Shown here: positions 15,712-59,978 of the stretch, one piece after another | Numbering within the stretch: the stretch's first letter is position 1 | Layout: every line of letters begins with the position of its first letter | Virus record (IMG/VR): IMGVR_UViG_3300032116_000094 | Span: 1-64,000 of that record | Strand: one strand, 5' to 3' | Source: a virus | Taxonomy: Duplodnaviria; Heunggongvirae; Uroviricota; Caudoviricetes | Length of the DNA: 64,000 nucleotides | Position numbers and translations under genes: made by a program | The notes under the pieces: model-generated | The model's input: only the letters and a program-made list of their open reading frames with translations | Told to the model about the DNA's origin: nothing | Database searches by the model: none

Positions 15712-15791
15712 GCAACAAAGATAAGACTATTATATGAAATTATAAAAAGTTTTTTTTTAAATTCTAGATATTTATTGTTAAAATAATAGTT

Positions 15792-16202
15792 ATGAAAAGA
15801 ACTATAAGGTTGACTGAAGATGATTTAACCAGGATTGTTAAAAAAGTAATTAATGAACAAAAAAACTTAGACGAGGCTTTTATTCGTAGTATATTCACTT
15901 CAGAAAATGATGAAATGTTAGAAAATATCTTTAAAATTATCAAAGATAATTTTAATCTAGATGATTTATCTCTATATCCTAATGGATATATGTATGAATA
16001 CAGAATTTTTGGAGGTTCTGCTGGAGTTTTAAGGGTGGTGAATGCTTGGTTATCTTTACCCCCAGACAGTAACATGATTGTATTATTAGATGGTAAGGAG
16101 ATTCGTTGCTCGTATATAATGGCCAGAAAAATATGGAATTTCTTTAAATCAAAATCAATTATTAAACCTATTAATAAGCCCAAAAGGATCGTAAAAAAAT
16201 GA
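15792..16202 (+). CDS. RLTEDDL N-module protein (136 aa)
   Basis: ORF. N-term MKRTIRLTEDDLTRIVKKVINEQKNLDEAF shared with 16262, 16752, 27016. Confidence 0.65.
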   Translation: MKRTIRLTEDDLTRIVKKVINEQKNLDEAFIRSIFTSENDEMLENIFKIIKDNFNLDDLSLYPNGYMYEYRIFGGSAGVLRVVNAWLSLPPDSNMIVLLDGKEIRCSYIMARKIWNFFKSKSIIKPINKPKRIVKK

Positions 16203-16230
16203 ACAATCGCCAATGATTGTGTTTTTTTTT
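16203..16230 (+). terminator. Rho-independent terminator
   Basis: ACAATC-gccaat-GATTGT hairpin followed by T9, directly after the stop at 16202. Confidence 0.6.
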
Positions 16231-16261
16231 ATTATAGATATTTATTATTAAAAAAATAATT

Positions 16262-16642
16262 ATGAAAAGAATTATAAGATTGACTGAAGATGATTTAACA
16301 AAAATTGTTAAAAAAGTCATTAATGAACAAAAAAAGTTAGACGAGGCTTTTTTTGATAAAAAAATAACTTCAGATGAGGATAAAAAATTAAGTGAGATAT
16401 TAGATTATATTGAAAACACATTTAATCCTAAAAATCTATCTGTAAAATCTAATTATTCTATCATCAAGTATAGGCTCCATGACGAAACATATTTAGAGAT
16501 TGAAGATACATCTATACCTGTTTTACTTATGAATAGTTTAATTGTTAGGTATGATAATAAAGTAATTGATTGCTCTTACAGCATGGCTAAAAAAATATGG
16601 AAATTCTTAGTCAAGAAATTTGATGAAATGGAAAATAACTAA
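16262..16642 (+). CDS. RLTEDDL N-module protein (126 aa)
   Basis: ORF. MKRIIRLTEDDLTKIVKKVINEQKKLDEAFF. C-terminal region ..CSYSMAKKIWKF similar to 15792 (CSYIMARKIWNF). Confidence 0.65.
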   Translation: MKRIIRLTEDDLTKIVKKVINEQKKLDEAFFDKKITSDEDKKLSEILDYIENTFNPKNLSVKSNYSIIKYRLHDETYLEIEDTSIPVLLMNSLIVRYDNKVIDCSYSMAKKIWKFLVKKFDEMENN

Positions 16643-16665
16643 TAACTATGTCCCCCACATAAAAA

Positions 16666-16697
16666 TGCACAATCGCCAATGATTGTGCATTTTTTTA
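16666..16697. terminator. Bidirectional rho-independent terminator (shares hairpin core with 16203-16230)
   Basis: TGCACAATC-gccaat-GATTGTGCA followed by T7. Lies between convergent genes. Confidence 0.6.
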
Positions 16698-16751
16698 TTG
16701 TATGATAATTATTGATTATCTTTTTTAAGAAATAAATTATGAAGTTTAAGG

Positions 16752-17150
16752 TTAACTTACGACTTCGAAAGCGTCTGCGTGATTATAGTGAAGCTGTACA
16801 AGATCTTCATATCTAGGCTTATATCCAGCTTTTTGATTCTTTTTTATATATTCTGGATGCGTGGTATCTTGACTATATAGAGCCTCTTTGTTTAGAGGCC
16901 TTAACTTCATCACGTTTCCGTCCATTCTCACAAACTCATACATTTCTCTTCCGTCTTTTATTACTTCTCCATCATCATCTACTCTCCATTTACGTTTTAT
17001 CTTTGTACCCGGTTCAAACGGAGGATTTTTCTTGTTTTTTCCTCCATATATACGATAATAATCCGTATGTTTTGATTTTTTTTCTTCGCTAATAATTCGT
17101 TTAACAATCCTTGTTAAATCATCTTCAGTTAGTCTTATAATTTTTTTCAT
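16752..17150 (-). CDS. RLTEDDL N-module protein (132 aa)
   Basis: ORF. MKKIIRLTEDDLTRIVKRIISEEKK. Confidence 0.65.
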   Translation of the reverse strand: MKKIIRLTEDDLTRIVKRIISEEKKSKHTDYYRIYGGKNKKNPPFEPGTKIKRKWRVDDDGEVIKDGREMYEFVRMDGNVMKLRPLNKEALYSQDTTHPEYIKKNQKAGYKPRYEDLVQLHYNHADAFEVVS

Positions 17151-17239
17151 AATTATTATTTTTAATAATAAATATCTTGATAAAAAAAAAACTACAATAA
17201 TTTACGGTTGTGCATTTTTTTTATCTACAAACCTCACAG

Positions 17240-17991: not shown

Positions 17992-18378
17992 TTAATTTGT
18001 AAAAGATTCATCAACCCACCAATAATCACCATTGTCAATATCTATCAGATATATGTAACATTTATACTCTTCAGTATAACGGACTTCGACAATCTTACAA
18101 TCTTTTCCGAGATATTCCTCAATTCCTGTATTATCGTTTCGTCGATATAATATATGTGTTCTTAGAAGGCTACATATATTTTCTTTAGTTCTAACGCTGT
18201 CACCAACTGAATGTTGTGACGGAACACCGTCACAATGTGTAAGTAATTTTTCACTCATATAACCTGAGTTTTTAATTATATTAACAGAAAAAAAGATTAT
18301 TATAAATGTGAGAATTATACCAAGAATAACTATAATCTCCAGATATAGTTCTGTTAGTTCAAATCTCTTTAGTTTCAT
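17992..18378 (-). CDS. Hypothetical membrane-anchored protein (128 aa)
   Basis: ORF. N-terminal hydrophobic segment. TAtcTTTG box at 18386-18393 (leader ~8 nt). Confidence 0.5.
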   Translation of the reverse strand: MKLKRFELTELYLEIIVILGIILTFIIIFFSVNIIKNSGYMSEKLLTHCDGVPSQHSVGDSVRTKENICSLLRTHILYRRNDNTGIEEYLGKDCKIVEVRYTEEYKCYIYLIDIDNGDYWWVDESFTN

Positions 18379-18460
18379 GCTACAAAGATAATACGTTTAT
18401 TTAATCCATGCAAGTTTTTTTTTCTTTCCACTGAAATTTTCTATCCGTATTGCATTTTTA

Positions 18461-18920: not shown

Positions 18921-18999
18921 TGACCAGGACAGGATTCGAACCTGTAAAACCAATGCAGTCTGTCTTATATGGTACGTCTGCCAATTCCGCCACCTGACC
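18921..18999 (-). tRNA. tRNA (identity unresolved; 5' half near-identical to tRNA at 13433-13563)
   Basis: GGTCAGG-TGGCGGAATTGGCAGACG... ACAGGTTCGAATCCTGT-CCTGGTC-A. Acceptor pairs with two G-U. Anticodon arm does not fold canonically by eye (possible small insertion). Confidence 0.45.
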
Positions 19000-19375: not shown

Positions 19376-19418
19376 CGATTAGGCTGTTTTCCGGCGGTCA
19401 CATTTAACCCCACTTACA

Positions 19419-19470
19419 CACCCCCTAGCGGAAGTGCGGGATTCGAACCCTATTGTGAAGCACCCCATCA
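19419..19470 (-). ncRNA. tRNA 3'-half-like element (T-arm GGGTTCGAATCCC nested in a GTGC/GCAC stem) within a 5' leader
   Basis: Minus strand GGGGTGC-TTCACAA-TAGGGTTCGAATCCC-GCACTTCC. No matching acceptor 5' strand or D/anticodon arms found. Confidence 0.3.
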
Positions 19471-19477
19471 CCCTTTA

Positions 19478-19525
19478 TTTAACACTGCAAAGATATATCC
19501 TTTATTTGATACTAGCAAATATTTT
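19478..19525 (-). promoter_or_regulatory. Bacteroidetes-type promoter (copy 1 of extended promoter family)
   Basis: Minus strand AAAAAATATTTGCTAGTATCAAATAAAGGATATATCTTTGCAGTG. TTTG then 19 nt then TAtcTTTG. Confidence 0.5.
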
Positions 19526-19729
19526 TTCAAGTTTAAACAAAAAATACAAATAACAAACACAATAACAATATAAATGCTATAAAAACAAACACATTCTCAA
19601 ATTCCTTTTGATATTTCTCATATACACTAATAGGTAATGCCATTGCAAAAAGCAAAATGAAAATTTCAATAAAAATGAAAATGAACAATAATGAGCAAGT
19701 ATTTTGGAAATTAAACATGATTGTTGGTT

Positions 19730-20131: not shown

Positions 20132-20292
20132 GTATCAATCGTAGAGTCCAAAAACGCTTCTGTAGTTTTTTTACCCTTATCTTTCGCCATTAAGTAAGCG
20201 AACAAAATTATAAATAAAATTACTGCATCACTAAAAATTTCAGTCTTGATCATGATGTGATTTTTTTTAGATAACGCAACACGCGATTACCT

Positions 20293-20342
20293 TTGTTTGA
20301 TACTGCAAAGATATAACCATTATTTGAGACTACCAAATATTT
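20293..20342 (-). promoter_or_regulatory. Bacteroidetes-type promoter (copy 2, ~85% identical to 19478-19525)
   Basis: Minus strand AAAAATATTTGGTAGTCTCAAATAATGGTTATATCTTTGCAGTATC. Upstream of an unlisted ~51-aa ORF starting near 20254. Confidence 0.5.
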
Positions 20343-20346
20343 TTTT

Positions 20347-21843: not shown

Positions 21844-21928
21844 ATGATTTGAGTTTGTTTAGAAAAAAAAGATATCGAGATTTTGCTCTCGTTTTTTGAT
21901 ACCGCAAAGGTATGTATTTTATTTCTAA

Positions 21929-23347
21929 CTATCTAGGTGGATAATATGATTTTACAAAAGTTTTGATTTCATGATCAAAGATTTCTCCTTCATGCCATTC
22001 ACCTTGAAACCATTTTCCATCACGCCAAAATCCCATAACAAATGTTCCATAAAACCATCTACTATCTTTAAATGTGCCATTATGCCATGTACCATTATTC
22101 CATGTACTATAATTAAATATACCATCATGCCATGTACCATTATTCCATGTACTATCATTAGTAAATGTACCTTTATGCCATGTACCATCATTCCATCTAC
22201 TATTATTAGTAAATGTGCCATTAAGCCATCTGCCGTTTTCCCACCGGCTATCATTAAATATACCATTATGCCATGTACCATTATGCCATGTGCCACCAAA
22301 AAATTTGCCATCAATCCAATCTCCATCATACCACTCTCCTTCAAGAAATATTATTTTTAAATCGTCATCGTCATTGTTTTTATGCTGAACAGAAAACACA
22401 GCATTACTGAAAGATGCTTCCGCTAACCAAGGTGCTATAATAAAAAGTCTTTCAGGTGTTAAGTTTCCAAGTAACCTACTAGTTTGTTTAGATAATTTAT
22501 CAATCTTTCTCTGATAATATACGTCATTAACTATTGGAACCGCGTTATTTGAATCGTATAATTTACTATCTTGGACAAAAACCCCAGTTTTACCTTTCTG
22601 GCAATAATCAAAAATTCTTAACAACGTTTTGGGATAATTTTTATTATGTAAACCATATTTAGTAAAAGAGTCATATTCAACGCCATACAATATATCAGTT
22701 CTCTTGTCTATAGAATAATAAGGTTTTATTAAAATCCTAGCTATTGGTCTTTTAATATTAAGATCATGTCGTTTTATCAAATAAGACACAATAGTGCCTT
22801 GAGTTATGTCTAACGGGAGATATTTGTTATATTGAGAAACTTTATCATCTCTTATATTCATGCAGGAAGTCCAATTTCTATCTGTACTCATACCTACTAT
22901 GTCATATGGATGCTTGCTAATAACAATTAAATAATCGTCACCAATAGATAATAAACTTTTCTCCCCAGCATATTTTTTTAATAGATCAAGTGCCTCTTTA
23001 TCCCTTTTACCTAAAAAAGTTAAAACTTTACCAATATTGATAATATTTTTATCATTAAATTTTTTTACTTTTCCTTTGTAAAAATTTACAACCTCATAAC
23101 CTCTATATCCTAGAAATTTTGTAATAATAGGCTCACATTCCAGGATATGTTTATCATCAGAGTCGTTTTTAACGTCATCTAATGTGAAATATAATCTATC
23201 CCCAGATTTGTTTTTGTAATTAGCTATTTTTTTTAAGTTATCCCATACATTTTCTATTCTTTGATTAGCTAGCCGACGATCAAGCCCCATATAAGGCCTA
23301 ATCTCAGATGGTTTTAAAGCCTCAAAAAGTTGTTTTTTGTTCCGCAT
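21929..23347 (-). CDS. Protein with C-terminal tandem W-x-(N/D)-G 8-residue repeats (472 aa)
   Basis: ORF. C-term GTWHNGTWHNGIFNDSRWENGRWLNGTFTNNSRWNDGTWHKGTF... with ~14 repeats, MORN- or cell-wall-binding-like. The nucleotide repeats create spurious ORFs on both strands. Confidence 0.6.
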   Translation of the reverse strand: MRNKKQLFEALKPSEIRPYMGLDRRLANQRIENVWDNLKKIANYKNKSGDRLYFTLDDVKNDSDDKHILECEPIITKFLGYRGYEVVNFYKGKVKKFNDKNIINIGKVLTFLGKRDKEALDLLKKYAGEKSLLSIGDDYLIVISKHPYDIVGMSTDRNWTSCMNIRDDKVSQYNKYLPLDITQGTIVSYLIKRHDLNIKRPIARILIKPYYSIDKRTDILYGVEYDSFTKYGLHNKNYPKTLLRIFDYCQKGKTGVFVQDSKLYDSNNAVPIVNDVYYQRKIDKLSKQTSRLLGNLTPERLFIIAPWLAEASFSNAVFSVQHKNNDDDDLKIIFLEGEWYDGDWIDGKFFGGTWHNGTWHNGIFNDSRWENGRWLNGTFTNNSRWNDGTWHKGTFTNDSTWNNGTWHDGIFNYSTWNNGTWHNGTFKDSRWFYGTFVMGFWRDGKWFQGEWHEGEIFDHEIKTFVKSYYPPR

Positions 23348-23868: not shown

Positions 23869-23883
23869 GTCTTTTTTTTTCTT

Positions 23884-23930
23884 GATGCAAAGATATAGGG
23901 TTATTCTGAATCTACCAAATATTTTTTTAT
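23884..23930 (-). promoter_or_regulatory. Bacteroidetes-type promoter (copy 3 of extended family)
   Basis: Minus strand AAAAAAATATTTGGTAGATTCAGAATAACCCTATATCTTTGCATCAAG. ~17 nt to ATG at 23868. Confidence 0.5.
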
Positions 23931-25238: not shown

Positions 25239-25307
25239 GTTTATTATTGTTTTTTTTTTGTTTCAACAAAGGTAAGGGCTTTTTAGGACCTGTGCAAGTT
25301 TTTTTTT

Positions 25308-26006: not shown

Positions 26007-26194
26007 GATCAGTTGTTTTAGACCACAAAGGTAAGACTAGTTTTTCAAATTACCAAAAAGAAAATAACAAAAAAATACTGCGACGGCACAAAATGCAAAA
26101 AATCCAAGAATTGCATACATAATCCACCAAAAGATGTCATATAGTTTTTGCATAAAATTTTTGTTCAACCAATTTTCCAACATAATATATTTTT

Positions 26195-27555: not shown

Positions 27556-27646
27556 TTACAATTTTTTAATTATAAATATCATAAAGATGATGTTTTATTT
27601 CAGGCTACAAAGGTAAAATGTTTATACTAAACCAACAAATATTTTT

Positions 27647-30873: not shown

Positions 30874-31078
30874 ATCTTATATTTTTTTGTCCAACAAAGA
30901 TACGTGATTTCATTTTATATTTCAAAGAAAATTTATTTTTTTTTATTTAAACAAAGTTATGATATTGAGGTTATACATAATGAACGGTAGTGAATGACGT
31001 ATAACCGATAAATCATAACTAAAGCAATGTTTATAATACGATTTAATATATTTATGAAAGATAGAAAAACTATTAAAT

Positions 31079-32137: not shown

Positions 32138-32191
32138 TAACTTTGTATTTATTAGTATAAATATCTCAAATTAGTAAAAAATAAACATGAT

Positions 32192-33108: not shown

Positions 33109-33139
33109 TTTGCGTTTTAATAAATTAGTTTTACCTTTG
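33109..33139 (+). promoter_or_regulatory. Bacteroidetes-type promoter for 33165..33899
   Basis: TTTG at 33109-33112. 19-nt spacer. TAccTTTG at 33132-33139. ~25 nt to ATG. Confidence 0.5.
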
Positions 33140-33899: not shown

Positions 33900-33968
33900 T
33901 CAGGTTTTTTATTATTTTTATACCATGTTCGGATATTTATAAAAATAATACTAAGAAAATTTATTTTT

Positions 33969-39465: not shown

Positions 39466-39493
39466 AATTTTTTAATACTATATTTATAAATAT

Positions 39494-40432
39494 CTACTCA
39501 TTGAGTAGTAGAGAAAAAACTAAAGTTCCCAAATTTAATACTTTACTTTTTGGGCTATATTTATAATAAACCTCAAAAACCAATGGCAATAGTTCATGCC
39601 TTAAATTAGTTTTAACCTCATCGTCAATCGGATCAGTTGTAAAGTGAAACTTTAAATCTTTTTTATTAAAAACTATTTTAGATAACCTAACATTAAAAGG
39701 ATAGTTTTCGAATATCAAAGCAAACCTGCGTATCTTAATAATCTTTTTGTACAATCTTTCAACTCGTTTAGCTTCAAGCTCAAGAAGCTTATTGCGCACT
39801 CCATCATAATCTAAATCAAGTTTTTCAATAACTTTCAAATCGTATGCATTCGCACTAACGTATTTTTTGCTAAATTCTGGAGAAACCTCTGATGAGGTAT
39901 AAAATTCGTTTACGTATTGTACCCCGTTAGAAAATATAGATACAAGATTAGTTCTACTATAGTAGTATAAATATTTTAACCCTTTAGATTTATCCCAGAG
40001 TCCAGATGAATCATAATGACCACGTGTAGAGCGAAAAGGAAATAAATAATACAAACAAATATTATCCATGAAACCTTCATTGATTATAATTTGTTCCGAA
40101 TTCGAGATATCAGTAAACGTCAATTCACTTCTACTTTTACCCAGCTTATATGCTATCTGTGTAGCAATAAGATACTTATAAAAGTAATAAGTTTCATAAT
40201 TACTATTCGGTTTTAACCCAAGAAACTTACTTTGCTTGTAAAAAACCACCCTAATATTATAATTTAAAGACAGAATATCTTTCGTAGTGTAAAAAAATAT
40301 ATCAAAAATTCCTGGGGGGATATCATACGGTTTAAGTCTTCTTTCCGAAAGAAATTTTTTAATATAAGCACGTAGTGATTTATCAATTAAATCAAAAGCT
40401 CTTACTTCGAAATTACTAAAATATTTGGCCAT
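39494..40432 (-). CDS. Array-B paralog (312 aa)
   Basis: ORF. Family motifs. Confidence 0.6.
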   Translation of the reverse strand: MAKYFSNFEVRAFDLIDKSLRAYIKKFLSERRLKPYDIPPGIFDIFFYTTKDILSLNYNIRVVFYKQSKFLGLKPNSNYETYYFYKYLIATQIAYKLGKSRSELTFTDISNSEQIIINEGFMDNICLYYLFPFRSTRGHYDSSGLWDKSKGLKYLYYYSRTNLVSIFSNGVQYVNEFYTSSEVSPEFSKKYVSANAYDLKVIEKLDLDYDGVRNKLLELEAKRVERLYKKIIKIRRFALIFENYPFNVRLSKIVFNKKDLKFHFTTDPIDDEVKTNLRHELLPLVFEVYYKYSPKSKVLNLGTLVFSLLLNE

Positions 40433-45939: not shown

Positions 45940-45972
45940 AATAGTATTTTTTTATATAAATATCTGAAGAAA

Positions 45973-47543: not shown

Positions 47544-47558
47544 ATTAAATAAATATCA

Positions 47559-48709: not shown

Positions 48710-48764
48710 TTTTTTTGATAGGACAAAGATACAAAATCTTTTCTGAATAAATAAAATATTCTAC

Positions 48765-50540: not shown

Positions 50541-50551
50541 GAACTAATTTG

Positions 50552-50623
50552 TGGCGGAGCCTGGACTCGAACCAGGACCTTTAGGTTATGAGCCTAATGA
50601 AGTAACCCTTTTTCCACTCCGCA
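50552..50623 (-). tRNA. tRNA-Met (anticodon CAT; initiator/elongator/Ile2 not distinguishable)
   Basis: Minus strand TGCGGAG-T-G-GAAAAAGGGTTACTTCA-TTAGG-CTCATAA-CCTAA-AGGT-CCTGGTTCGAGTCCAGG-CTCCGCC-A. Clean anticodon stem-loop with CAT. T-arm. Acceptor pairs 2-7. 1:72 mismatch. No CCA. Confidence 0.6.
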
Positions 50624-50899
50624 ATATAACGAACAATAAATATCAATATTTATCAGATTAGTCAAGTAGTTTTTAAGAAAAATTTACAACAACATGATAT
50701 TTATTCAAGATAAACCAAAACCAGGAAAATCTTTTACTTTGTAACATTTCTTCTATAACAGGTTGTAATTCACGATCACTACTAATAACAAGTTGTTTTT
50801 TTGGTATACAATTATCTAAATAATTTCCCAAAGTGTCAACATCTTCTCTATCATTTATTTTACTTATAAAACCCAGTAAAAATTGTAAATTTCATATGT

Positions 50900-51289: not shown

Positions 51290-51314
51290 TTTTTTGTTTT
51301 TTTATTTTTTTTAT

Positions 51315-52921: not shown

Positions 52922-52979
52922 AATTAAGTAATATAACTATTATATATATTATTTTTAAAAAGTAAAATATTTATTATTA

Positions 52980-53324
52980 ATGTTATTAAAAATAAATAAT
53001 AATAAATTTAATGTTAAATTAGCCATTAGCCCTGATGAAAGAAGTGAGGGTATGATGAATAAAAAGTTTAATGAAGAATATAATGGAATGCTTTTTGTTG
53101 AAGATGAAAGTGATGTCCATTGTTTCTGGATGAAAAATTGCATAATATCTCTAGATATTATTTTTATACAAAAAGGTACAATTACCAAAATACACGAGAA
53201 CTGCCCCCCCTGTGTTACAGATAGCTGTGAAACATATTGTGGTTACGGAAATTTAGTTCTAGAAGTTGCCGGTGGCACTTGCGCAAAACTAGGAATTAAG
53301 AAAGGTGATAAGATGACCTCATAA
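52980..53324 (+). CDS. DUF192-family protein
   Basis: ORF 114 aa. LAISPDERSEGMM..GMLFVEDESDVHCFWMKNCIISLDIIFI..CPPC..YVLE-like order matches the DUF192 (COG1430) pattern. Confidence 0.65.
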   Translation: MLLKINNNKFNVKLAISPDERSEGMMNKKFNEEYNGMLFVEDESDVHCFWMKNCIISLDIIFIQKGTITKIHENCPPCVTDSCETYCGYGNLVLEVAGGTCAKLGIKKGDKMTS

Positions 53325-53371
53325 CACCTAAATAATCAATTAAATTTTACTGGTGACAAATAATAACACGC

Positions 53372-53971
53372 ATGATAACTTCATGTAAAAAAAAACATTT
53401 GCCTATGAAACAACTAAAAAACATTTTAACGATTACTGTCGCATTATTTATCGGATTTACTATTGGTTACTATAAAAAAATATCTGAATTATTAACGAAT
53501 AAGCCCGTTCCAAAAGTTATCCAACATCAAAAAGATGATTCCCCAATTTCAATTAAGATGTATAATACCATCCGCGAGAAATCAAGAGAGTATCAGATAC
53601 CTACATACATTGCATTCAACATAGCGTACCTGGAAACCAGGTATAGAGGCCCGTTCGATTCAAAATATAACCCAGCATTAATTTCATCAGTAGGAGCTGT
53701 GGGTCCAATGCAATTAAGAGAATCAACAGCAGAATTTATTACTAAAAGAGATATAGATAACGAACAACTTAAAAACGACATATCTCTTAATGTAGAAATT
53801 AGCATGAAACTTTTAAAATATCTTTACGATAGATACGGATCATGGGAAATAGCGTGTAGCTACTATAACACAGGTAAGGCCAAAAAAAATAGTTTCGGAT
53901 CTTATTGTGTAGAAAATGTTGACTACACATATAAATGGGAAAATTATAATAAAACCATTTTCACGCCATAA
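53372..53971 (+). CDS. Lytic transglycosylase (SLT domain), N-terminal TM/signal
   Basis: ORF 199 aa. ..YLETRY..ISSVGAVGPMQL..SYYNTGK resembles the SLT catalytic E-S/T..GLMQ..AYN.G pattern. Start may be internal (MKQLKNILTI at ~53405). Confidence 0.6.
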   Translation: MITSCKKKHLPMKQLKNILTITVALFIGFTIGYYKKISELLTNKPVPKVIQHQKDDSPISIKMYNTIREKSREYQIPTYIAFNIAYLETRYRGPFDSKYNPALISSVGAVGPMQLRESTAEFITKRDIDNEQLKNDISLNVEISMKLLKYLYDRYGSWEIACSYYNTGKAKKNSFGSYCVENVDYTYKWENYNKTIFTP

Positions 53972-54549
53972 TATACACCATCTCTATATTCTATTAGATA
54001 ATATACATTTAACCCCCCCCTATTTCTTCCCCTTATATTAGCCAAATATTCGGCGTCTAATGGACTATCATGTATCGAGAGTACGACACCAAAGGGTGTT
54101 ATTAATATCGCCCTGTAAGCCAAGCTACGGCTAAAATTAACGATGCTATCCTGAACGACAATAGTATCGTTACCAGGGTGATCAGGAAACCTACAGCCCC
54201 TAACGATATATTTGTAATGGCTAAAATATACAAGCCCATTAAAGTCATAATCGGCTTTCTTTAGGTATACTGTTCCAATAGAATCAAAATTTAAAATGTA
54301 TGTCTCTGAGTAAGATAGAGAGTCATATGGGGGATCAAAAACATAATCCTCAGGTATTGTGCTGTAGTCGCAAGTCGTACTATCAATAACGTATACTACG
54401 CCATTCTGCCTTAAAGTACCACCTAAGTGCTGCTCGTTAGTTAGATGCAAAGTATCACCCCTACAAACAAAAATTGTCGTATCAACAGCTTGTGCTAATG
54501 ATACGACAAAGTTTGTTACAAATAGAATTATAGTTATAAATGTCTTCAT
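53944..54549 (-). CDS. Secreted hypothetical protein (201 aa)
   Basis: ORF. N-terminal signal peptide MKTFITIILFVTNFVVSLAQA. Confidence 0.55.
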   Translation of the reverse strand: MKTFITIILFVTNFVVSLAQAVDTTIFVCRGDTLHLTNEQHLGGTLRQNGVVYVIDSTTCDYSTIPEDYVFDPPYDSLSYSETYILNFDSIGTVYLKKADYDFNGLVYFSHYKYIVRGCRFPDHPGNDTIVVQDSIVNFSRSLAYRAILITPFGVVLSIHDSPLDAEYLANIRGRNRGGLNVYYLIEYRDGVYYGVKMVLL

Positions 54550-54752
54550 AATTATAACTATCGCAAAAAATCAATTAAGACGTTTTTGGCGGATAAACTT
54601 TAGGCCTACGTCTAGGTTTGTAAGACTTTTTTTTAACCGGCTTAGCCAAAAGCTCTGTCTCAGAAAAATCCTTCACATAGTTATTCGTAATAGGATTAGT
54701 TCGGTTAAATAGTTTTGAAAATGTTTTTTTAAAAAATTCTAGGATCATAATA

Positions 54753-54974
54753 TTATTTTGTTTCTTTTAATTTGTTAATCTTTCGAGAAAGATACCATAC
54801 AGCTTTCTCCAAATCTTCAATTTCTTTACTTGGATCTTTCTTGCCGGATCTAACTATGTATTTCAAAGCATTTCCATTGTGGAAGTCTAAATTGTAGTGT
54901 TCTATGATTTTAATTACTTCAAATGGATTGTCCGCACCCCCATAGTGCTCCGGGTGATCTACGTTTTTATTCAT
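54753..54974 (-). CDS. DUF3310-like phage-associated small protein
   Basis: ORF 73 aa. HPEHY..GNALKYIVRSGKK..DLEKAVWYL pattern typical of phage DUF3310 proteins. Confidence 0.5.
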   Translation of the reverse strand: MNKNVDHPEHYGGADNPFEVIKIIEHYNLDFHNGNALKYIVRSGKKDPSKEIEDLEKAVWYLSRKINKLKETK

Positions 54975-54978
54975 ATAT

Positions 54979-55740
54979 TTAAGTTAATTTTTTGATTTCA
55001 TTAATCTTAACCGACTGCATAATATATGACATAACTTTACGCTTAAAAAGCGGTGCCAATGTCTCTTCTATTGGGAAACTTTGGGGTATTTTAACAAAAA
55101 ATACCGGTGCTTTTCGTTTATTCTTTGTTATCAACTTTGTTGAGTTAGAAATATGATAGTCCAGATCATATGACTTAGAGTCCCCAGAAAATATCAAATT
55201 TAAGTCAGTATTGTTCTCCGCGATAGTAAATACATTTTTGGTTATTAGATACTCCCAAATATATACATTATTATCCGTTTCATCAACATAAACTATCACA
55301 CCAAAGTTATAATTTTTTATGTTATTTTTATTCCTCTTAGGAATTAATTCGATATTATCATAGATATACGACCAATAATGCCTAACTATCTCAAAATACT
55401 CATAAATTTTCATAGTAGAAAATTTAACTGAGTTAATAATTTCTATCTGCTCAACCTCGTTAAATTCTGGCAATTCTTTAAAACTCAAATCTTGTAATAT
55501 AACTTCATCATCGTATGATTTAAATTTTTTATCAGTATAAACCATCATATGTTCGTGCATGATAGCGTGTAGATTAGCTAAGTGCAACGATATTTCTATA
55601 AATGTTGGATACAATTTGTGCTCATTTATTAATGCATCAATTTTTTTTAGATACCCCAATAAAACATACTGCTTATGTTCAAAGTCTATCGGCTCCTGGA
55701 TAACCCAATCTGTATCCATAATAAATTTAATTTTACTCAT
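54979..55740 (-). CDS. Hypothetical protein (253 aa)
   Basis: ORF. Confidence 0.55.
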   Translation of the reverse strand: MSKIKFIMDTDWVIQEPIDFEHKQYVLLGYLKKIDALINEHKLYPTFIEISLHLANLHAIMHEHMMVYTDKKFKSYDDEVILQDLSFKELPEFNEVEQIEIINSVKFSTMKIYEYFEIVRHYWSYIYDNIELIPKRNKNNIKNYNFGVIVYVDETDNNVYIWEYLITKNVFTIAENNTDLNLIFSGDSKSYDLDYHISNSTKLITKNKRKAPVFFVKIPQSFPIEETLAPLFKRKVMSYIMQSVKINEIKKLT

Positions 55741-55784
55741 AAATCATATTCTAGTTCATAATGATAAATAATATTTTACTAATT

Positions 55785-57080
55785 TTAAAGTGAACCGCCA
55801 TCTTCATAATATATATGATATCCAACTCTATTAATAACAGAATAACCTAAAGGCCCTTCACCATGTAAAATATATTGTTCTTCGCCGTCACTTCGAAGAA
55901 CATCCATAACCCAAGCATTTTTATCTACAAATCCAGCTATAAATTTGGAATCATAGCCCATTTCCTTTAAAAAGCTAACCGGGTCATCTTTTATACTATC
56001 CAACCAGTTAGAGACATAGTTCTCAATAGCCTCTTCAGAATAAGTTTTTTCCTCTTCAATTGATTCTATTTCAGACTCTATCTCGGTTAACCTATCTCTA
56101 AGTTCCTCTATTTCATCTTCATCTTCCAATTCACCAATTTTATACTCTATTGTTTCTGCTTCACTTCTTAATATGTCAATTTCATTCATCTGACTTTCAG
56201 TTAGTTCCATATCATCCTCATCTAAATAAGATTCCGGAGACTCTCTAACCCATTCATCTATGGTACCCTCAAAAGAATCTCTAACTTCATCACCGTCAAC
56301 ATAATAATCAAGATCCATATTTGACATATCCATATCATCATATAAGCTATTAATATTTTCTGTCGCATATTGTGTACATTCGTCATCAGTAAGTACTATG
56401 AATGTCTTATCATAGGCAGTAGTGTTCTCACCTTCAATCACAATATAATAGTCACGATTCGAACCATATCTAACTGGGAAGATAGAATATAATCCAAAAT
56501 TATTTTCGTGCAATTCATAAATCTCATTTTCAATTTCATCAATACGTTCTTTCAATTCTCCGTAAATAATGTTATCTTCACCAATACTTTCTAATCGACC
56601 TTGTAATTCTTCTAAATTAGTTTCTAAGGCTAATATCTTGTCTTGATATTCAGGGTCAATTATGTTCTCATCAACAAAATACTCATATAACGCATTAACT
56701 TTATTACTTTCTTCTGTATCATTTTCTATATTAAATAGACCTCTAACTTCATATAATTTCAGCTGTTCAAGACGGTCTTGCTTAATTTTACGTAATCTTT
56801 TACGCTCTAAAGGTGTATTTGAATCTGATGTATATCTACCAACCTTAATGTGACTGATGTTTGAAATATTGGTATTACTAATATTTAAGTAACCCTTAAC
56901 TTCAATAATACCTTCTAAGTTATCAATATTTGAACGACTTAAATCTAGACTGTCTGTTATTATAATATTTTTATTCCTTATCTTTGGTAACTTAAGCACT
57001 AATCTTGGATTACCCCCAGCAAATTTTAATAATTTACGATATTCTGCACTGGTTAATGATATAGTTTCTTTATCTTCCAT
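55785..57080 (-). CDS. Large acidic coiled-coil protein (431 aa)
   Basis: ORF. Long D/E-rich heptad-like central region. Confidence 0.55.
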   Translation of the reverse strand: MEDKETISLTSAEYRKLLKFAGGNPRLVLKLPKIRNKNIIITDSLDLSRSNIDNLEGIIEVKGYLNISNTNISNISHIKVGRYTSDSNTPLERKRLRKIKQDRLEQLKLYEVRGLFNIENDTEESNKVNALYEYFVDENIIDPEYQDKILALETNLEELQGRLESIGEDNIIYGELKERIDEIENEIYELHENNFGLYSIFPVRYGSNRDYYIVIEGENTTAYDKTFIVLTDDECTQYATENINSLYDDMDMSNMDLDYYVDGDEVRDSFEGTIDEWVRESPESYLDEDDMELTESQMNEIDILRSEAETIEYKIGELEDEDEIEELRDRLTEIESEIESIEEEKTYSEEAIENYVSNWLDSIKDDPVSFLKEMGYDSKFIAGFVDKNAWVMDVLRSDGEEQYILHGEGPLGYSVINRVGYHIYYEDGGSL

Positions 57081-57173
57081 CGAATTTTCAATTTAATCTT
57101 TTTTGCTCTATTTATATATTTATAAATATAAATATTATTGCAATAAATAAACTAACACTAAAACAAATTAAAT

Positions 57174-57326
57174 ATGGGATGCGGATGCAAAAACAAAGGC
57201 AATAATGCCGAACAACCAACAACTAACAGTACAACAACAAATACTCAACAGGCAACAAAGAGTGTAACAGAAAAGTTAAAAGAAGATATCCAACGTACTG
57301 TTAAAAAATACTATAACAATAGATAG
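57174..57326 (+). CDS. Small Cys-rich N-terminus ORF (50 aa), unlisted in ORF track
   Basis: ATG 57174, stop TAG 57324-57326. MGCGCKNKGNNAEQPTT... Followed directly by a strong terminator. Confidence 0.25.
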   Translation: MGCGCKNKGNNAEQPTTNSTTTNTQQATKSVTEKLKEDIQRTVKKYYNNR

Positions 57327-57334
57327 TATAAAAA

Positions 57335-57362
57335 AACCGCAATAATTGTTGCGGTTTTTTTT
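57335..57362. terminator. Bidirectional rho-independent terminator
   Basis: AACCGCAA-taattg-TTGCGGTT hairpin flanked by an A-run upstream and T8 downstream. Confidence 0.65.
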
Positions 57363-57417
57363 ATGTTATATTTATACTTATTTTTTTTTAATGTAAAATT
57401 ATAAAAAAATAATAATC

Positions 57418-58137
57418 ATGAGATTATCAAATAACATAACAAAACAAACTATCGTTAATTTATTGGCTGAATATATCTTAAATGAATTAGGCCCAGACAC
57501 AGCAACTCAGATAACAGTCATAGATCAAGGTAATTTTTTCGTCATATTAGGATGTACTAACACAAAAAAGAGTTTAAAACTCACAGAAATATTTATTCAA
57601 TTTACCGATAAGTATTCAGATTTAATATCTGAAGCTAACTATCCAAAAGAACTAAGTTTTGTAAATTTTATTCGGGCATCTAATGAAGACGATTTAGTAA
57701 CTTCTTGCGAAATAAATCTATACAATACTGAAAGGCCTTCAATCAACACAATTTGCGTACCTGCCGGTTTGATCCCCATTCATACTCCAGATCTTTTGTC
57801 CTCCCAATTCCCACATGGTTATGGGTTAAAAACTAACAGAGCATTATTATTATACTTTGAATATATTGCATATAATATAATGGACGGCACAAACACATCT
57901 GAGATGTGTATTTCTTTTCATAAAGAAAATGAATTCGAAGATAAATTACAGGTCAAGTCTGTATCTCTTAGAGACAATGAAAAAATAAAGTCCGCAATAC
58001 TAGATTTATTCGATCTAGATTACACTAAATTTATTAGTGAATATAATTCATATGATTTTACAGGCGAGGTATTAAACCCCATGATGGAGAAACCCTGGTT
58101 GAAAAAAGAAATTGATACTATTGATCTATTAATCTAG
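57418..58137 (+). CDS. Hypothetical protein (239 aa)
   Basis: ORF. Confidence 0.55.
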   Translation: MRLSNNITKQTIVNLLAEYILNELGPDTATQITVIDQGNFFVILGCTNTKKSLKLTEIFIQFTDKYSDLISEANYPKELSFVNFIRASNEDDLVTSCEINLYNTERPSINTICVPAGLIPIHTPDLLSSQFPHGYGLKTNRALLLYFEYIAYNIMDGTNTSEMCISFHKENEFEDKLQVKSVSLRDNEKIKSAILDLFDLDYTKFISEYNSYDFTGEVLNPMMEKPWLKKEIDTIDLLI

Positions 58138-58422
58138 TATCAATTTCTTTTTTATTATTTCTATCCCTTCATCTATACCATGATAATGTTGATCCGGAGC
58201 ATATAGTTCGCTATCAAGATTACCTTTTTCGTCTGTCTTTATTATCATAAAAGATGGCACATATTCGTTCCCACCCACAGCCTCAACGAATAATTCGAAT
58301 TCATCCGGATAAAGATCAATATCTCTATCGTGAAAAGAGATATTATTCTCTGTCAACATATCTTTCATCATCGTGCAGTATGGACACGATTTCATTGTAA
58401 ATAAAACTAGTTCTCCCCCCAT
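58129..58422 (-). CDS. Glutaredoxin
   Basis: ORF 97 aa. CPYC active site after a beta-strand start (LVLFTMKSCPYCTMMK). Confidence 0.8.
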   Translation of the reverse strand: MGGELVLFTMKSCPYCTMMKDMLTENNISFHDRDIDLYPDEFELFVEAVGGNEYVPSFMIIKTDEKGNLDSELYAPDQHYHGIDEGIEIIKKKLILD

Positions 58423-58730
58423 ATTGTCGCCATTTTAGTTATTTCTTCTTTAGACGTTATTCCTATTTTAGATTTTACTTCTTTACCTGAGTAAAATCCT
58501 TTAATTACCGGAACACTTCTTATACCCAAAGACATTGATAATTCTATATCAGTATCTACATCAAAAGTATACAATTTAGTTTCGTTACCCTCATTCTCAA
58601 GTTTTTCCATAACTTCCTCAAAAACAGGTTTAAGAACTTTACATGGCCCACACCATTGAGCATAAAACTCAACAAGGATTTTTTTATCTGAGTTTAGTAA
58701 CTCTTTTAACTTATCAGGACTAATATCCAT
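58407..58730 (-). CDS. Thioredoxin
   Basis: ORF 107 aa. WCGPC active site (FYAQWCGPCKVLKP). 16-nt overlap with glutaredoxin gene. Confidence 0.85.
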   Translation of the reverse strand: MDISPDKLKELLNSDKKILVEFYAQWCGPCKVLKPVFEEVMEKLENEGNETKLYTFDVDTDIELSMSLGIRSVPVIKGFYSGKEVKSKIGITSKEEITKMATIWGEN

Positions 58731-59118
58731 AATTTTTACTTTTATTTAGTTTATTTATCAGAATTTTTACAAATTCTAAATTTTCTTGCTGAAATATTAT
58801 TGTTAACGAATACCAAGAATTTTCATCCGAATTCCAATCTTTACCCATACTAGGGTTTGCCGGTACTCTACTCAAATATAAATATATATTTTTACCAAAT
58901 TCTAAAATATATTCATAGCCAACGATTTTAGAGTCATTATCCGAACTTTGCTGATATTGAGCTACAACTATTTTAAATTTATCTAATTCAAATATAGATT
59001 TGTTAAACGTACCATTTATCGTAATGGTTGAATAGTCGTATTTCGACTCTTTATTTATTTTTTTTAAAAATTTTTTCAAAAAACTCATAATGAAAAATTT
59101 GGGAGGATATTTTTGCAT
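58720..59118 (-). CDS. Hypothetical protein (132 aa)
   Basis: ORF. 11-nt overlap with thioredoxin gene (operon-like). Confidence 0.5.
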   Translation of the reverse strand: MQKYPPKFFIMSFLKKFLKKINKESKYDYSTITINGTFNKSIFELDKFKIVVAQYQQSSDNDSKIVGYEYILEFGKNIYLYLSRVPANPSMGKDWNSDENSWYSLTIIFQQENLEFVKILINKLNKSKNYGY

Positions 59119-59151
59119 ATCCCCCCATTTAAGCGGTTAACTTACAGTTTA

Positions 59152-59919
59152 TTATTGAAGATATTCTTCAGCCATCTTCCAAAGACCTGTATTAATATTG
59201 TTGATGAGTTTAATGTCTGTCAAAAATCGAACAGAAGTACGTCTCTGAGTTCCGGTGGAATATGTGATACCTCCGCGTACAAAGTTTTCCTGAAGTGTAT
59301 TAAATGTGTTCCAGAGATTAGGAACAACATCTTCATTCCTATTGGGCTTTACAAGTCTTTCAGGTGAAAGATTTTCAGGAATCCTTTCTTCTGGCCACCT
59401 TAGACTCATTGCTTTTCTAGCAAATTCATGTCGTTCATCATCAGTCATAATCCTTGACATCATTTCTTTGACATTTCCCTCAATCATTGGTAGCATTTCA
59501 GCGAAATTATCTGTAAGTTTTCGAACTTCAGATACATCGAAGTACTTGTGCTTCAAAGTAATTGTACCACTAAGTGATGTGGGCACTGTCAGACCATTAG
59601 AACAAGCCAGGCGGAAAAGACCAGCTTTAACTGAAAGAATGTTGCTACCATCATGTGAGTTAGATATTACAGCCTCAAACAGGCTATCACCAACAACTTT
59701 TGGAACACTTCCGTTCCTGAGCCTAATCTCATGCCTAGAATATTGGCCCCTACCAGTTTGTTTTGCACTAAAGATGTCCCATCCCTCAGCACTAAACTTC
59801 TCAAGAATATCTATTGTTGGGACGAAAACATACTTGCTCGAAAGCTTTGGCGATGGTGAGGTTGTGAAAATAGACGGAACGTTAGTTCTGAGTGTTTCAA
59901 ATTCAATTGGTGCTGCCAT
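59152..59919 (-). CDS. DUF932-like (phage/plasmid-like) protein; GC-richer than neighbours
   Basis: ORF 255 aa. ..AVISNSHDGSNILSVKAGLFRLACSNGL.. resembles the conserved core recalled for DUF932/TIGR03299 proteins. TAtcTTTG at ~59944-59951. Composition visibly less AT-rich. Confidence 0.4.
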   Translation of the reverse strand: MAAPIEFETLRTNVPSIFTTSPSPKLSSKYVFVPTIDILEKFSAEGWDIFSAKQTGRGQYSRHEIRLRNGSVPKVVGDSLFEAVISNSHDGSNILSVKAGLFRLACSNGLTVPTSLSGTITLKHKYFDVSEVRKLTDNFAEMLPMIEGNVKEMMSRIMTDDERHEFARKAMSLRWPEERIPENLSPERLVKPNRNEDVVPNLWNTFNTLQENFVRGGITYSTGTQRRTSVRFLTDIKLINNINTGLWKMAEEYLQ

Positions 59920-59978
59920 GTGTCGTTGTTTTTTAATTGTGCTGCAAAGATACGATAATCGTATTCACAATTGCAAAT

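What the first reader, a model, noticed from the sequence alone, without database searches (positions are those of the whole stretch)
15712..59952. Recurrent TAnnTTTG -7 boxes (with TTTG -33) assign the region to a Bacteroidetes transcription system, and one promoter family is duplicated nearly verbatim
Minus-strand genes starting at 15711, 18378, 21843, 23868, 25238, 26006, 27555, 30873, 48709 and 59919 are each preceded, 6-65 nt upstream, by the reverse complement of ..gcaaagata.. or ..caaaggta.. This gives TAtcTTTG or TAccTTTG, often with TTTG ~19-21 nt further up. That is the Bacteroidetes sigma-A consensus, and the short leaders fit the weak-Shine-Dalgarno, leaderless style of that phylum. 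Three promoters (19478-19525, 20293-20342, 23884-23930) also share a ~45-nt extended sequence, AAAAATATTTGGTAG..TATATCTTTGCA. Host assignment matters because the paralog arrays otherwise look giant-virus-like.
Basis: partly seen in the sequence, partly recalled or inferred. Interest (0 to 1): 0.55.

Follow-up and report, generated by a model that had tools for sequence, protein, structure and literature searches.

The report
Bacteroidota-type promoters in a jumbo phage
The repeated TAnnTTTG boxes are real and look like ordinary Bacteroidota-style promoters (TTTG, about 20 bases, TAYCTTTG) in front of the probable early genes of an uncultured jumbo phage, so the host assignment holds but the promoter type is already well known.

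Summary
All ten listed minus-strand starts have TAYCTTTG upstream, and the near-verbatim promoter family exists, with five members rather than three.

The signal is not chance:
- TAYCTTTG occurs 28 times against 7.6±3.1 in shuffles.
- TTTG-N19-21-TAnnTTTG occurs 13 times against 2.5±1.5.
- Fourteen of the 15 fully intergenic TAYCTTTG copies point at a downstream gene.
- An unselected TTTG appears exactly 20 nt upstream, preceded by an A-tract.

Independent hallmarks of Bacteroidota gene expression agree:
- None of 129 starts has a Shine-Dalgarno core.
- Adenine peaks at -14 to -11.
- E. coli-type promoters are not enriched.
- Bacteroides phage B40-8 gives the same profile and T4 does not.
- The same contig, about 9 kb past the window, encodes a 266-aa sigma factor. 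Its best matches in the plasmid collection are all Bacteroidota RpoD/SigA, and its -10-recognition residues are of the Bacteroidota type.

The element is an uncultured jumbo phage, not a giant virus.

- Bacteroidota are SD-poor but not typically leaderless. Only two promoters here have leaderless geometry.
- Two plus-strand promoters and one in front of a tRNA-like gene were missed.
- A second motif, GATATTTAT, about 16 nt before starts, was missed.

Verdict: a new member of a known kind, of modest interest.

The parts
9873..9904 (+). Class I promoter: TTTG-N20-TACCTTTG, 9 nt before the ATG at 9914 (a member of the ~105-aa paralog array).
13575..13604 (-). Weaker class I variant: TTTG-N18-TATTTTTG, 11 nt before the tRNA-like gene at 13563-13433.
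15716..15723 (-). Class I -7 box TATCTTTG, 4 nt before the ATG at 15711. This is leaderless geometry. There is no -33 TTG, but an A-tract lies upstream.
18383..18413 (-). Class I promoter: TTG-N20-TATCTTTG, 4 nt before the ATG at 18378 (leaderless geometry). Member of the 56-nt family.
19488..19519 (-). Class I promoter: TTTG-N20-TATCTTTG, core of the near-verbatim family. It is followed by a G+C-rich stretch of about 100 nt without an ORF, then the 65-aa ORF starting at 19351.
20306..20337 (-). Class I promoter: TTTG-N20-TATCTTTG, 88% identical over 56 nt to the 19488 copy. It precedes small ORFs starting at 20253.
21905..21912 (-). Class I -7 box TACCTTTG, 61 nt before the Band_7/SPFH gene start at 21843. 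No -33 TTG.
23888..23919 (-). Class I promoter: TTTG-N20-TATCTTTG, family member, 19 nt before the ATG at 23868.
25267..25297 (-). Class I promoter: TTG-N20-TACCTTTG, 28 nt before the ATG at 25238.
26026..26057 (-). Class I promoter: TTTG-N20-TACCTTTG, 19 nt before the ATG at 26006.
27608..27639 (-). Class I promoter: TTTG-N20-TACCTTTG, family member, 52 nt before the ATG at 27555. A class II motif lies between it and the gene.
30895..30926 (-). Class I promoter: TTTG-N20-TATCTTTG, 21 nt before the ATG at 30873.
33109..33139 (+). Class I promoter: TTTG-N19-TACCTTTG, 25 nt before the ATG at 33165.
48724..48731 (-). Class I -7 box TATCTTTG, 14 nt before the ATG at 48709. No -33 TTG at the standard spacing.
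59945..59977 (-). Class I promoter: TTTG-N21-TATCTTTG, 25 nt before the DUF932 gene start at 59919. Both boxes are unchanged in a relative that is 87% identical overall.
15767..15775 (+). Class II motif GATATTTAT, 16 nt before the ATG at 15792.
16237..16245 (+). Class II motif GATATTTAT, 16 nt before the ATG at 16262.
17168..17176 (-). Class II motif GATATTTAT, 17 nt before the ATG at 17150.
27572..27580 (-). Class II motif GATATTTAT, 16 nt before the ATG at 27555.
32157..32165 (-). Class II motif GATATTTAT, 19 nt before the ATG at 32137.
33932..33940 (+). Class II motif GATATTTAT, 28 nt before the ATG at 33969.
39486..39494 (-). Class II motif GATATTTAT, 20 nt before the ATG at 39465 (a member of the ~300-aa paralog array).
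45956..45964 (-). Class II motif GATATTTAT, 16 nt before the ATG at 45939.
47549..47557 (-). Class II motif GATATTTAT, 5 nt before the ATG at 47543.
50636..50644 (-). Class II motif GATATTTAT, 12 nt before tRNA-Met (50623-50551), which is followed by the GOLLD RNA.

Best explanation
The boxes are promoters of the Bacteroidota primary-sigma class. Each has an A-tract, a -33 TTTG, a spacer of about 20 nt and a -7 box TAYCTTTG followed by YnG. They lie on an uncultured low-GC jumbo phage that infects a member of the Bacteroidota.

Proposed mechanism: host RNA polymerase carrying the host sigma-A binds these sites soon after infection and starts about 5 nt past the final G. It transcribes a block of small genes of unknown function, mainly at 13.5-33 kb, plus the operon that holds the phage's own sigma factor.

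Translation then follows the Bacteroidota mode: no Shine-Dalgarno pairing and A-rich leaders.

The 56-nt near-verbatim family is a strong version of this promoter, copied in front of unrelated downstream sequences.

Shown here: sequence, spacing, orientation, enrichment, the controls and the sigma affinity. Inferred: actual start sites, timing, and which sigma factor is used.
For: Architecture:
- When the 15 intergenic TAYCTTTG sites are aligned on the box alone, T/T/T/G appears at -24 to -21 in 12, 15, 13 and 10 of the 15. This gives a 20-nt spacer, with an A-run at -33 to -27.
- Twelve of the 15 have TTG at 18-21 nt.
- This matches the published -33 TTTG / -7 TAnnTTTG consensus.

Enrichment and orientation:
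- The composite occurs 13 times against 2.5±1.5.
- TAYCTTTG density is 2.21/kb in sense intergenic DNA, 0.19/kb in antisense intergenic DNA and 0.13/kb in coding DNA. Binomial p is 4e-11.
- E. coli-type -35/-10 matches number 98 against 119.6±11.1 in shuffles.

Geometry:
- In F. psychrophilum the box occupies -12 to -5 relative to the start site.
- That places the predicted start on the A of the ATG at 15711 and 18378.
- Predicted 5'UTRs run from 0 to 57 nt, most between 10 and 24 nt. The published medians are 24 and 32 nt.

Translation signals:
- None of 129 starts has an SD core. T4 has 48% and B40-8 has 8%.
- Adenine frequency is 0.62-0.68 at -14 to -11, as described for Bacteroidetes.

Controls: Bacteroides phage B40-8 carries the composite at 1.23/kb of sense intergenic DNA, against 1.26/kb here. 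T4 carries none.

Sigma factor on the same contig:
- The top eight plasmid-collection hits are all Bacteroidota RpoD/SigA, at 40-42% identity. Other phyla reach 36-38%.
- The region 2.3-2.4 residues FISYAV..QSIL..RLPxN and the region 4.2 residues QIKEK are the Bacteroidota states.
- Of 29 diagnostic columns, 14 carry the Bacteroidota state and 4 the outgroup state.

Conservation:
- A relative that is 86.9% identical overall keeps 97 of 100 nt upstream of DUF932, with both boxes intact.
- A relative whose sigma is 67% identical has TTTG-N20-TATATTTG before the same DUF6576-sigma operon.
Against: - No transcription start data exist for this phage, so promoter activity is inferred.
- Three of the 15 sites lack a -33 element.
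- The only direct host-link attempt, a genome scan with the Hc1-like protein, gave one uninformative 22-residue hit to a Hyphomicrobiales MAG.
- Flavobacterium phage immuto has essentially none of these promoters in the 140 kb examined. The motif is therefore not universal among Bacteroidota phages.
- The sigma comparison used only taxa that happen to be in the plasmid collection. Chlorobiota and Ignavibacteriota were not represented.
- The phage's own sigma-A-like factor could read these sites.
Confidence: 0.72

Rival explanations
1. The sites are promoters of the same class, but they are read mainly by the phage-encoded 266-aa sigma-A-like factor rather than by host sigma-A. The phage would bring its own copy of the housekeeping sigma to keep TAYCTTTG promoters active, perhaps while host sigma-A is inhibited.
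For: - The phage sigma keeps the Bacteroidota-type residues of regions 2.3-2.4 and 4.2.
- It is conserved at 67-94% identity in more than 100 metagenomic variants, and the contigs inspected all showed phage context.
- The phage consensus, TAYCTTTG-YnG, is narrower than the generic TAnnTTTG.
Against: - The DUF6576-sigma operon is itself preceded by a class I box, both in this phage and in a diverged relative. Something must therefore read that box before the phage sigma exists.
- B40-8 shows the same promoter profile, though whether it encodes a sigma factor was not checked here.
- The phage sigma lacks a segment of about 20 residues in region 3 and differs at the position aligned with E. coli R441. 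It may therefore have a different specificity, possibly for the GATATTTAT class.
Confidence: 0.2
2. The host belongs to a related lineage with similar expression signals, for example Chlorobiota, Ignavibacteriota or another SD-poor group, and not to the Bacteroidota proper.
For: - Chlorobaculum RpoD clusters with Bacteroidetes RpoD and uses a related TTG / TAnn-type promoter.
- No direct host link was obtained.
Against: - The Chlorobaculum -7 consensus is TA[ATC][ATC][AT]T, without the conserved terminal G. Here the G is invariant by selection and the full TTTG is kept.
- Among cultured phages, the DUF932 protein matches Flavobacterium phages with the lowest E-values.
- The Band_7 protein has homologues in Prevotella Lak phages.
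- A weak SprB-repeat hit lies on a close relative's contig.
Confidence: 0.07
3. The recurring boxes are not promoters. They are chance AT-rich words, or a repeat spread by local duplication (an operator, a recombination site or a mobile intergenic cassette).
For: - Five sites belong to one 56-nt repeat family, so some of the recurrence comes from copying.
- Generic TAnnTTTG is only weakly enriched.
Against: - Ten further sites share only the two boxes and their spacing.
- Strand bias is 14 sense to 1 antisense in intergenic DNA.
- Within the three-copy alignment (A1) the two boxes are invariant and the spacer is not.
- The same profile appears in an unrelated Bacteroides phage.
- No shuffle reached the observed counts.
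Confidence: 0.03

Closest known systems
Bacteroidota primary-sigma (sigma-ABfr / sigma-A) promoters, -33 TTTG / -7 TAnnTTTG (Bacteroides fragilis, B. thetaiotaomicron, Flavobacterium spp.)
   Same: - The same two boxes and the same 19-21 nt spacing.
- Sense orientation in front of genes.
- 5'UTR lengths in the published range.
- Accompanied by SD-free, A-rich translation initiation regions.
   Different: - They lie on a phage, not a chromosome.
- The variable 'nn' is restricted to YC, and a YnG follows the box.
- A long A-tract sits just upstream of the -33 box.
- Activity was not measured.
Intergenic promoters of Bacteroides phage B40-8 (used here as a positive control)
   Same: - Composite promoter density in sense intergenic DNA is 1.23/kb in B40-8 and 1.26/kb here.
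- SD cores are rare.
- Adenine peaks at -13 to -11.
   Different: - B40-8 is a 45-kb siphovirus of a gut Bacteroides, with no sequence relationship to this phage.
- Its 'nn' positions are more varied.
- It has no GATATTTAT motif.
ATATTTAT motif before the structural genes of Flavobacterium phage vB_FspM_immuto, and T4-type late promoters (TATAAATA)
   Same: - The second motif here, GATATTTAT, is the same word that lies 12-31 nt before the terminase, tail sheath, baseplate hub and other late genes of immuto. Counts there are 9 in sense intergenic DNA, 0 in antisense and 3 in coding DNA.
- Like T4 late promoters, it looks like a single -10-type element with no -35 partner.
   Different: - It is not the T4 word: TATAAATA is its reverse complement in part.
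- Function and reader are unknown in both phages.
- Here it precedes small genes and a tRNA rather than recognised structural genes.
E. coli sigma-70 promoters (TTGACA-N17-TATAAT)
   Same: Two-box architecture read by a group 1 sigma factor.
   Different: - The boxes and the spacing are different.
- Sigma-70-type matches are not enriched here: 98 against 119.6±11.1.

Membership tests
Bacteroidota sigma-A promoter (-33 TTTG / -7 TAnnTTTG) | -7 box TAnnTTTG upstream of genes, in sense orientation, more often than chance | tested here: met
   TAYCTTTG occurs 28 times against 7.6±3.1. Counts are 14 in sense intergenic, 1 in antisense intergenic and 15 in coding DNA, with p = 4e-11.
Bacteroidota sigma-A promoter (-33 TTTG / -7 TAnnTTTG) | -33 TTTG (or TTG) 19-21 nt upstream of the -7 box | tested here: met
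   An unselected TTTG appears at -24 to -21 in the alignment of 15 sites. Twelve of 15 have TTG at 18-21 nt, nine of them at exactly 20 nt. The composite occurs 13 times against 2.5±1.5.
Bacteroidota sigma-A promoter (-33 TTTG / -7 TAnnTTTG) | Transcription starts about 5 nt after the final G (box at -12 to -5) | not testable with these tools
   This needs 5'-end RNA-seq. The geometry is compatible: two boxes end 4 nt before an ATG, and one variant box ends 11 nt before a tRNA-like gene.
Bacteroidota sigma-A promoter (-33 TTTG / -7 TAnnTTTG) | Recognition by RNA polymerase carrying a Bacteroidota-type primary sigma | not testable with these tools
   Only indirect evidence is available. The contig encodes a sigma with Bacteroidota-type residues in regions 2.3-2.4 and 4.2.
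Bacteroidota gene-expression system (host assignment) | Absence of Shine-Dalgarno sequences, with an A-rich -14 to -11 and A at -6 and -3 | tested here: met
   None of 129 starts has an SD core, against 4-6% of background windows and 48% of T4 starts. Adenine is 0.62-0.68 at -14 to -11 and 0.58 at -3.
Bacteroidota gene-expression system (host assignment) | Direct host link (CRISPR spacer, prophage, co-localisation) | tested here: inconclusive
   One genome-collection scan, with the Hc1-like protein, gave a single 22-residue hit to a Hyphomicrobiales MAG. No spacer search was possible.
E. coli-type sigma-70 promoters | TTGACA-N16-18-TATAAT matches enriched over shuffles | tested here: not met
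   98 found against 119.6±11.1 expected. TTGACA is not enriched in sense intergenic DNA.
T4-type late promoter | TATAAATA about 10 nt upstream of late gene transcription starts | tested here: not met
   TATAAATA shows no strand bias in intergenic DNA (7 sense, 5 antisense). The oriented word is GATATTTAT (9 sense, 1 antisense, 0 coding).

The most novel reading that the evidence does not exclude
A large and widespread clade of freshwater jumbo phages carries its own shortened copy of the Bacteroidota housekeeping sigma factor. It uses this to run a two-tier programme.

Tier one: host-type TTTG-N20-TAYCTTTG promoters, read by host sigma-A and possibly also by the phage copy.

Tier two: a single-box GATATTTAT class, shared with the cultured Flavobacterium phage immuto, that drives later genes and the tRNA-Met/GOLLD RNA unit.

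If the phage sigma reads the host-type promoters, this would be a case of a phage replacing, rather than redirecting, the host's primary sigma.
Probability: 0.25. Interest if true: 0.55.

Novelty: new member of a known kind. Interest (0 to 1): 0.33.

Why it matters
The result gives an uncultured jumbo phage a host phylum from sequence alone. That phage has no close cultured relative, is full of unannotated genes and long paralog arrays, and could be mistaken for a giant virus.

It also yields a usable map of about 15 probable promoters and transcription units, and flags which genes are probably expressed first.

Combining the two-box promoter, the absence of SD and the A-rich leaders is a cheap, general test for Bacteroidota phages in metagenomes. 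The B40-8 and T4 controls show that it discriminates. Flavobacterium phage immuto shows that it can miss true cases.

The promoter type itself is textbook, so the advance is in annotation rather than concept.

Tried and rejected
- **Close cultured relatives.** Megablast of 15-30 kb against phage records found nothing. tblastn with a concatenation of 14 proteins found no close cultured relative.
- **Direct host link.** It returned one 22-residue match in a Hyphomicrobiales MAG, which is uninformative.
- **Promoter conservation among distant relatives.**
  - A viral-contig scan with the 232-aa protein found 32 distant relatives (about 26% identity). Nearly all lack SD, but they have few class I sites near the homologue.
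  - A metagenome scan with the Band_7 protein found two other phages (70-76% identity) with no synteny. One of them also has TATCTTTG before several genes.
  - Contigs carrying the same proteins are 99.5-100% identical to the window, so they give no footprint.
- **Flavobacterium phage immuto as a positive control.** It has essentially no class I promoters in the 140 kb examined. It did, however, reveal the shared ATATTTAT motif.
- **Bacteroidota-specific protein domains** (type IX secretion sorting domain and the like). Pfam and NCBIfam scans of the large ORFs found none. There is only a weak SprB hit on a relative's contig.
- **RNA downstream of the 19488 promoter.** Its fold is no more stable than shuffles, z = -0.26, and Rfam has no match.
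- **Taxon names from cluster look-up.** The look-up of sigma homologues gave no taxon names.
- **Chance as an explanation.** Considered and rejected on the shuffle counts.

Full report
**What the window is.** The window is 29-30% G+C and 90% coding under the standard bacterial code. It holds:
- about 38 tandem paralogs of roughly 105 aa at 190-13125;
- about 11 tandem paralogs of roughly 300 aa at 34872-45127;
- between and after these, many small ORFs with no family match.

A few genes are typical of phages: ThyX, a metallophosphoesterase, an SLT transglycosylase and DUF932. NUDIX, thioredoxin, glutaredoxin, DUF3310 and an Hc1-like protein were seen as precomputed Pfam hits on identical contigs.

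Exact copies of its proteins occur on more than 20 metagenomic contigs, two of them 0.2-1 Mb long. No cultured phage is close. I take it to be part of an uncultured jumbo phage, not a giant virus.

**Checking the observation.** The three 'verbatim' promoters belong to a five-member family of 56 nt: 18367-18422, 19472-19527, 20290-20345, 23872-23927 and 27592-27647. In the alignment of the three named copies, AAAAAATATTTG.TAG and TATATCTTTGCA are invariant while the spacer varies.

Counts against dinucleotide-preserving shuffles:
- TAYCTTTG: 28 against 7.61±3.08.
- TTTG-N19-21-TAnnTTTG: 13 against 2.52±1.52.
- No shuffle reached either observed value.
- Generic TAnnTTTG is only mildly enriched, at 148 against 112±10. 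The real signal is the narrower box and the composite.

Fifteen of the 28 TAYCTTTG copies lie wholly in the 10% of the window that is intergenic, and 14 of those face a same-strand gene within 136 nt. Densities are 2.21/kb in sense-oriented intergenic DNA, 0.19/kb in antisense intergenic DNA and 0.13/kb in coding DNA. The binomial p is 4e-11.

**Anatomy.** I aligned the 15 intergenic sites on the -7 box alone. An unselected T-T-T-G then appears at -24 to -21, in 12, 15, 13 and 10 of the 15 sites. That is a 20-nt spacer. It is preceded by an A-run at -33 to -27, and the box is followed by Y-n-G.

Twelve of the 15 sites have TTG at 18-21 nt, nine of them at exactly 20 nt. The consensus is A-tract, TTTG, N20, TAYCTTTG, YnG.

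The published Bacteroidetes consensus is -33 TTTG / -7 TAnnTTTG (PMC6847099). In Flavobacterium psychrophilum the box occupies -12 to -5 relative to mapped start sites (PMC9723704).

Applying that geometry:
- The predicted start falls exactly on the A of the ATG at 15711 and 18378, so these two would be leaderless.
- Predicted 5'UTRs for the other protein genes are 5-57 nt, most of them 10-24 nt. The published medians are 24 and 32 nt.

E. coli-type -35/-10 matches are not enriched: 98 against 119.6±11.1.

**Independent tests of the host assignment.**

1. *Translation signals.*
   - None of 129 ORF starts has an AGGA/GGAG/GAGG core at -18 to -4. Background is 4-6% of windows.
   - Adenine frequency peaks at 0.62-0.68 at -14 to -11, with secondary peaks at -7/-6 and -3. 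The pattern holds when the paralog arrays are removed.
   - This is the signature described for Bacteroidetes.

2. *Controls run with the same script.*
   - Bacteroides phage B40-8 gives nearly the same numbers: composite promoters at 1.23/kb of sense intergenic DNA against 1.26/kb here, SD cores at 8% of starts, and an adenine peak at -13 to -11.
   - The T4 early region gives no composite promoters and SD cores at 48% of starts.
   - Flavobacterium phage immuto has essentially no class I promoters in the 140 kb examined. Presence of the motif is therefore informative, but absence is not.

3. *A marker-like gene on the same contig.*
   - Locus L001 is 100% identical to window 49152-64000. About 9 kb past the window end it carries a 266-aa RpoD-like sigma factor.
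   - Against the plasmid collection, which also holds chromids and misassigned chromosome pieces from many phyla, its eight best matches are all Bacteroidota RpoD/SigA: Bacteroides, Parabacteroides, Phocaeicola, Prevotella and Hymenobacter, at 40-42% identity. Proteobacteria and Firmicutes follow at 36-38%.
   - In alignment it carries the Bacteroidota residues in the promoter-recognition regions. These are FISYAVWWIRQSIL and RLPxN where other phyla have FSTYATWWIRQAIT and RIPVH, and QIKEK where they have QIEAK.
   - Of 29 columns that separate three Bacteroidota from four outgroups, it has the Bacteroidota state at 14 and the outgroup state at 4.

4. *Weaker hints.*
   - Among cultured phages, the DUF932 protein matches Flavobacterium phages with the lowest E-values.
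   - The Band_7 protein has homologues in Prevotella Lak phages.
   - A weak SprB-repeat hit lies on a close relative's contig.

**Conservation.**
- A relative 86.9% identical over 11.7 kb keeps 97 of 100 nt upstream of DUF932, with both boxes intact. One of the three changes is C to T at the Y position after the box.
- The DUF6576-sigma operon is preceded by TACCTTTG in this phage. In a relative whose sigma is only 67% identical, it is preceded by TTTG-N20-TATATTTG in otherwise different sequence.

**How it most likely works.** Host RNA polymerase with host sigma-A recognises these sites on the incoming DNA. It then transcribes the small unannotated genes concentrated at 13.5-33 kb, which hold 11 of the 15 sites, together with the phage sigma operon. 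Translation proceeds without SD pairing.

The 56-nt family looks like an optimised promoter cassette placed in front of unrelated downstream sequences:
- a G+C-rich stretch without an ORF, after 19488;
- small membrane-like ORFs, after 20306;
- a 100-aa ORF, after 23888.

Sequence, spacing, orientation, enrichment, the controls and the sigma affinity are shown. Start sites, timing and the identity of the sigma that reads the sites are inferred.

**Main rival.** The phage's own sigma-A-like factor may read these promoters. It keeps the relevant Bacteroidota residues and is highly conserved across more than 100 metagenomic variants; the contigs inspected all showed phage context. Against this as the sole reader, its own operon sits behind a class I box, so something must read that box first. 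It also lacks about 20 residues of region 3 and varies at the position aligned with E. coli R441 (Y, H or Q), so it may have a shifted specificity.

GATATTTAT occurs 11 times. Ten copies are intergenic, and nine point at a start codon 5-28 nt downstream, most often 16-20 nt. One lies 12 nt before tRNA-Met. Counts are 9 in sense intergenic DNA, 1 in antisense and 0 in coding DNA, with p = 2e-11. No -35-like partner is visible.

The same core, ATATTTAT, lies 12-31 nt before the terminase, tail sheath, tail completion, baseplate hub and other late genes of Flavobacterium phage immuto. Counts there are 9 sense, 0 antisense and 3 coding. I read it as a candidate second promoter class, middle or late, possibly the target of the phage sigma or of another phage factor. 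This is untested.

- The phylum is SD-poor but not characteristically leaderless. Only 5.5% of F. psychrophilum mRNAs are leaderless, and most F. johnsoniae transcripts are leadered.
- The Chlorobaculum primary-sigma promoter is related but lacks the terminal G. The motif therefore points to the Bacteroidota rather than to the wider group, but I could not include sister phyla in the sigma comparison.

**Verdict.** The promoter type is well known, so this is a new member of a known kind. Its value is in assigning a host phylum and a transcription map to an unannotated jumbo phage.

Noticed in passing
window 49707-50134 (-), with tRNA-Met at 50551-50623 (-): There is a full-length match to the conserved 3' domain of GOLLD RNA (Rfam RF02032, 231.5 bits against a threshold of 150). 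It lies about 420 nt downstream of a phage tRNA-Met, inside a 981-nt gap without ORFs. A GATATTTAT motif sits 12 nt before the tRNA. The GOLLD env-38 RNA whose structure was solved was also found downstream of a Met-tRNA (PMC12286853).
   Followed up: partly
L001:911-1708 (same contig, about 9 kb beyond the window end): The phage encodes a 266-aa RpoD-like sigma factor with Bacteroidota-type residues in regions 2.3-2.4 and 4.2, and with a region 3 segment of about 20 residues missing. It is conserved at 67-94% identity in more than 100 metagenomic variants. In the contigs inspected it sits in the same DUF6576 - sigma - amidase - Hc1 gene order.
   Followed up: yes
window 13433-13563 (-) and 18921-18999 (-): There are two further tRNA matches from Rfam (42.5 and 36.4 bits) that ARAGORN did not call. 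The first is 131 nt long, so it carries an insertion of about 60 nt, possibly an intron or an unusually long extra arm. Both begin GTCAGGTGGCGGAATTGG.
   Followed up: no
window 19380-19484 (-): A G+C-rich stretch without an ORF follows directly after the 19488 promoter. It contains a tRNA-like minihelix: GGGGTGC pairs with GCACTTC around a GGG-TTCGAAT-CCC T-arm, and this includes a G3:U70-type wobble pair. Its predicted fold is no more stable than shuffles (z = -0.26), and Rfam has no match.
   Followed up: partly
window 190-13125 (+): There are about 38 head-to-tail paralogs of 94-114 aa, with mean pairwise identity of 40% and gaps of mostly 1-43 nt. They have no Pfam, PHROG or NCBIfam match. 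Only one class I promoter lies inside the array (9873-9904). Metagenome assemblies break within this array.
   Followed up: partly
window 34872-45127 (-): There are about 11 tandem, highly diverged paralogs of 251-319 aa, with mean pairwise identity of 18% and no family match. One GATATTTAT motif lies inside the array, at 39486-39494.
   Followed up: no
window 16195-16230, 16661-16696 and 17186-17221: A repeated hairpin, AAAAATGCACAATCGCCAATGATTGTGCATTTTTTT, is flanked by an A-run and a T-run. It looks like a bidirectional intrinsic terminator. It separates three paralogous genes of about 130 aa (15792-16202, 16262-16642, 16752-17150), each preceded by GATATTTAT.
   Followed up: no
window 21929-23347 (-), repeats at 22014-22343: The 472-aa ORF contains about ten 15-nt (five-residue) tandem repeats. 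Variant contigs differ in length here (457 against 472 aa), so the repeat number varies between strains.
   Followed up: no
L012 (Flavobacterium phage vB_FspM_immuto_3-5A, 110-160 kb): ATATTTAT lies 12-31 nt upstream of the terminase, tail fibre, PhoH, tail sheath, tail completion and baseplate hub genes. Counts are 9 in sense intergenic DNA, 0 in antisense and 3 in coding DNA. This is a probable late promoter motif of that cultured phage, and I did not find it described in the papers I read.
   Followed up: partly
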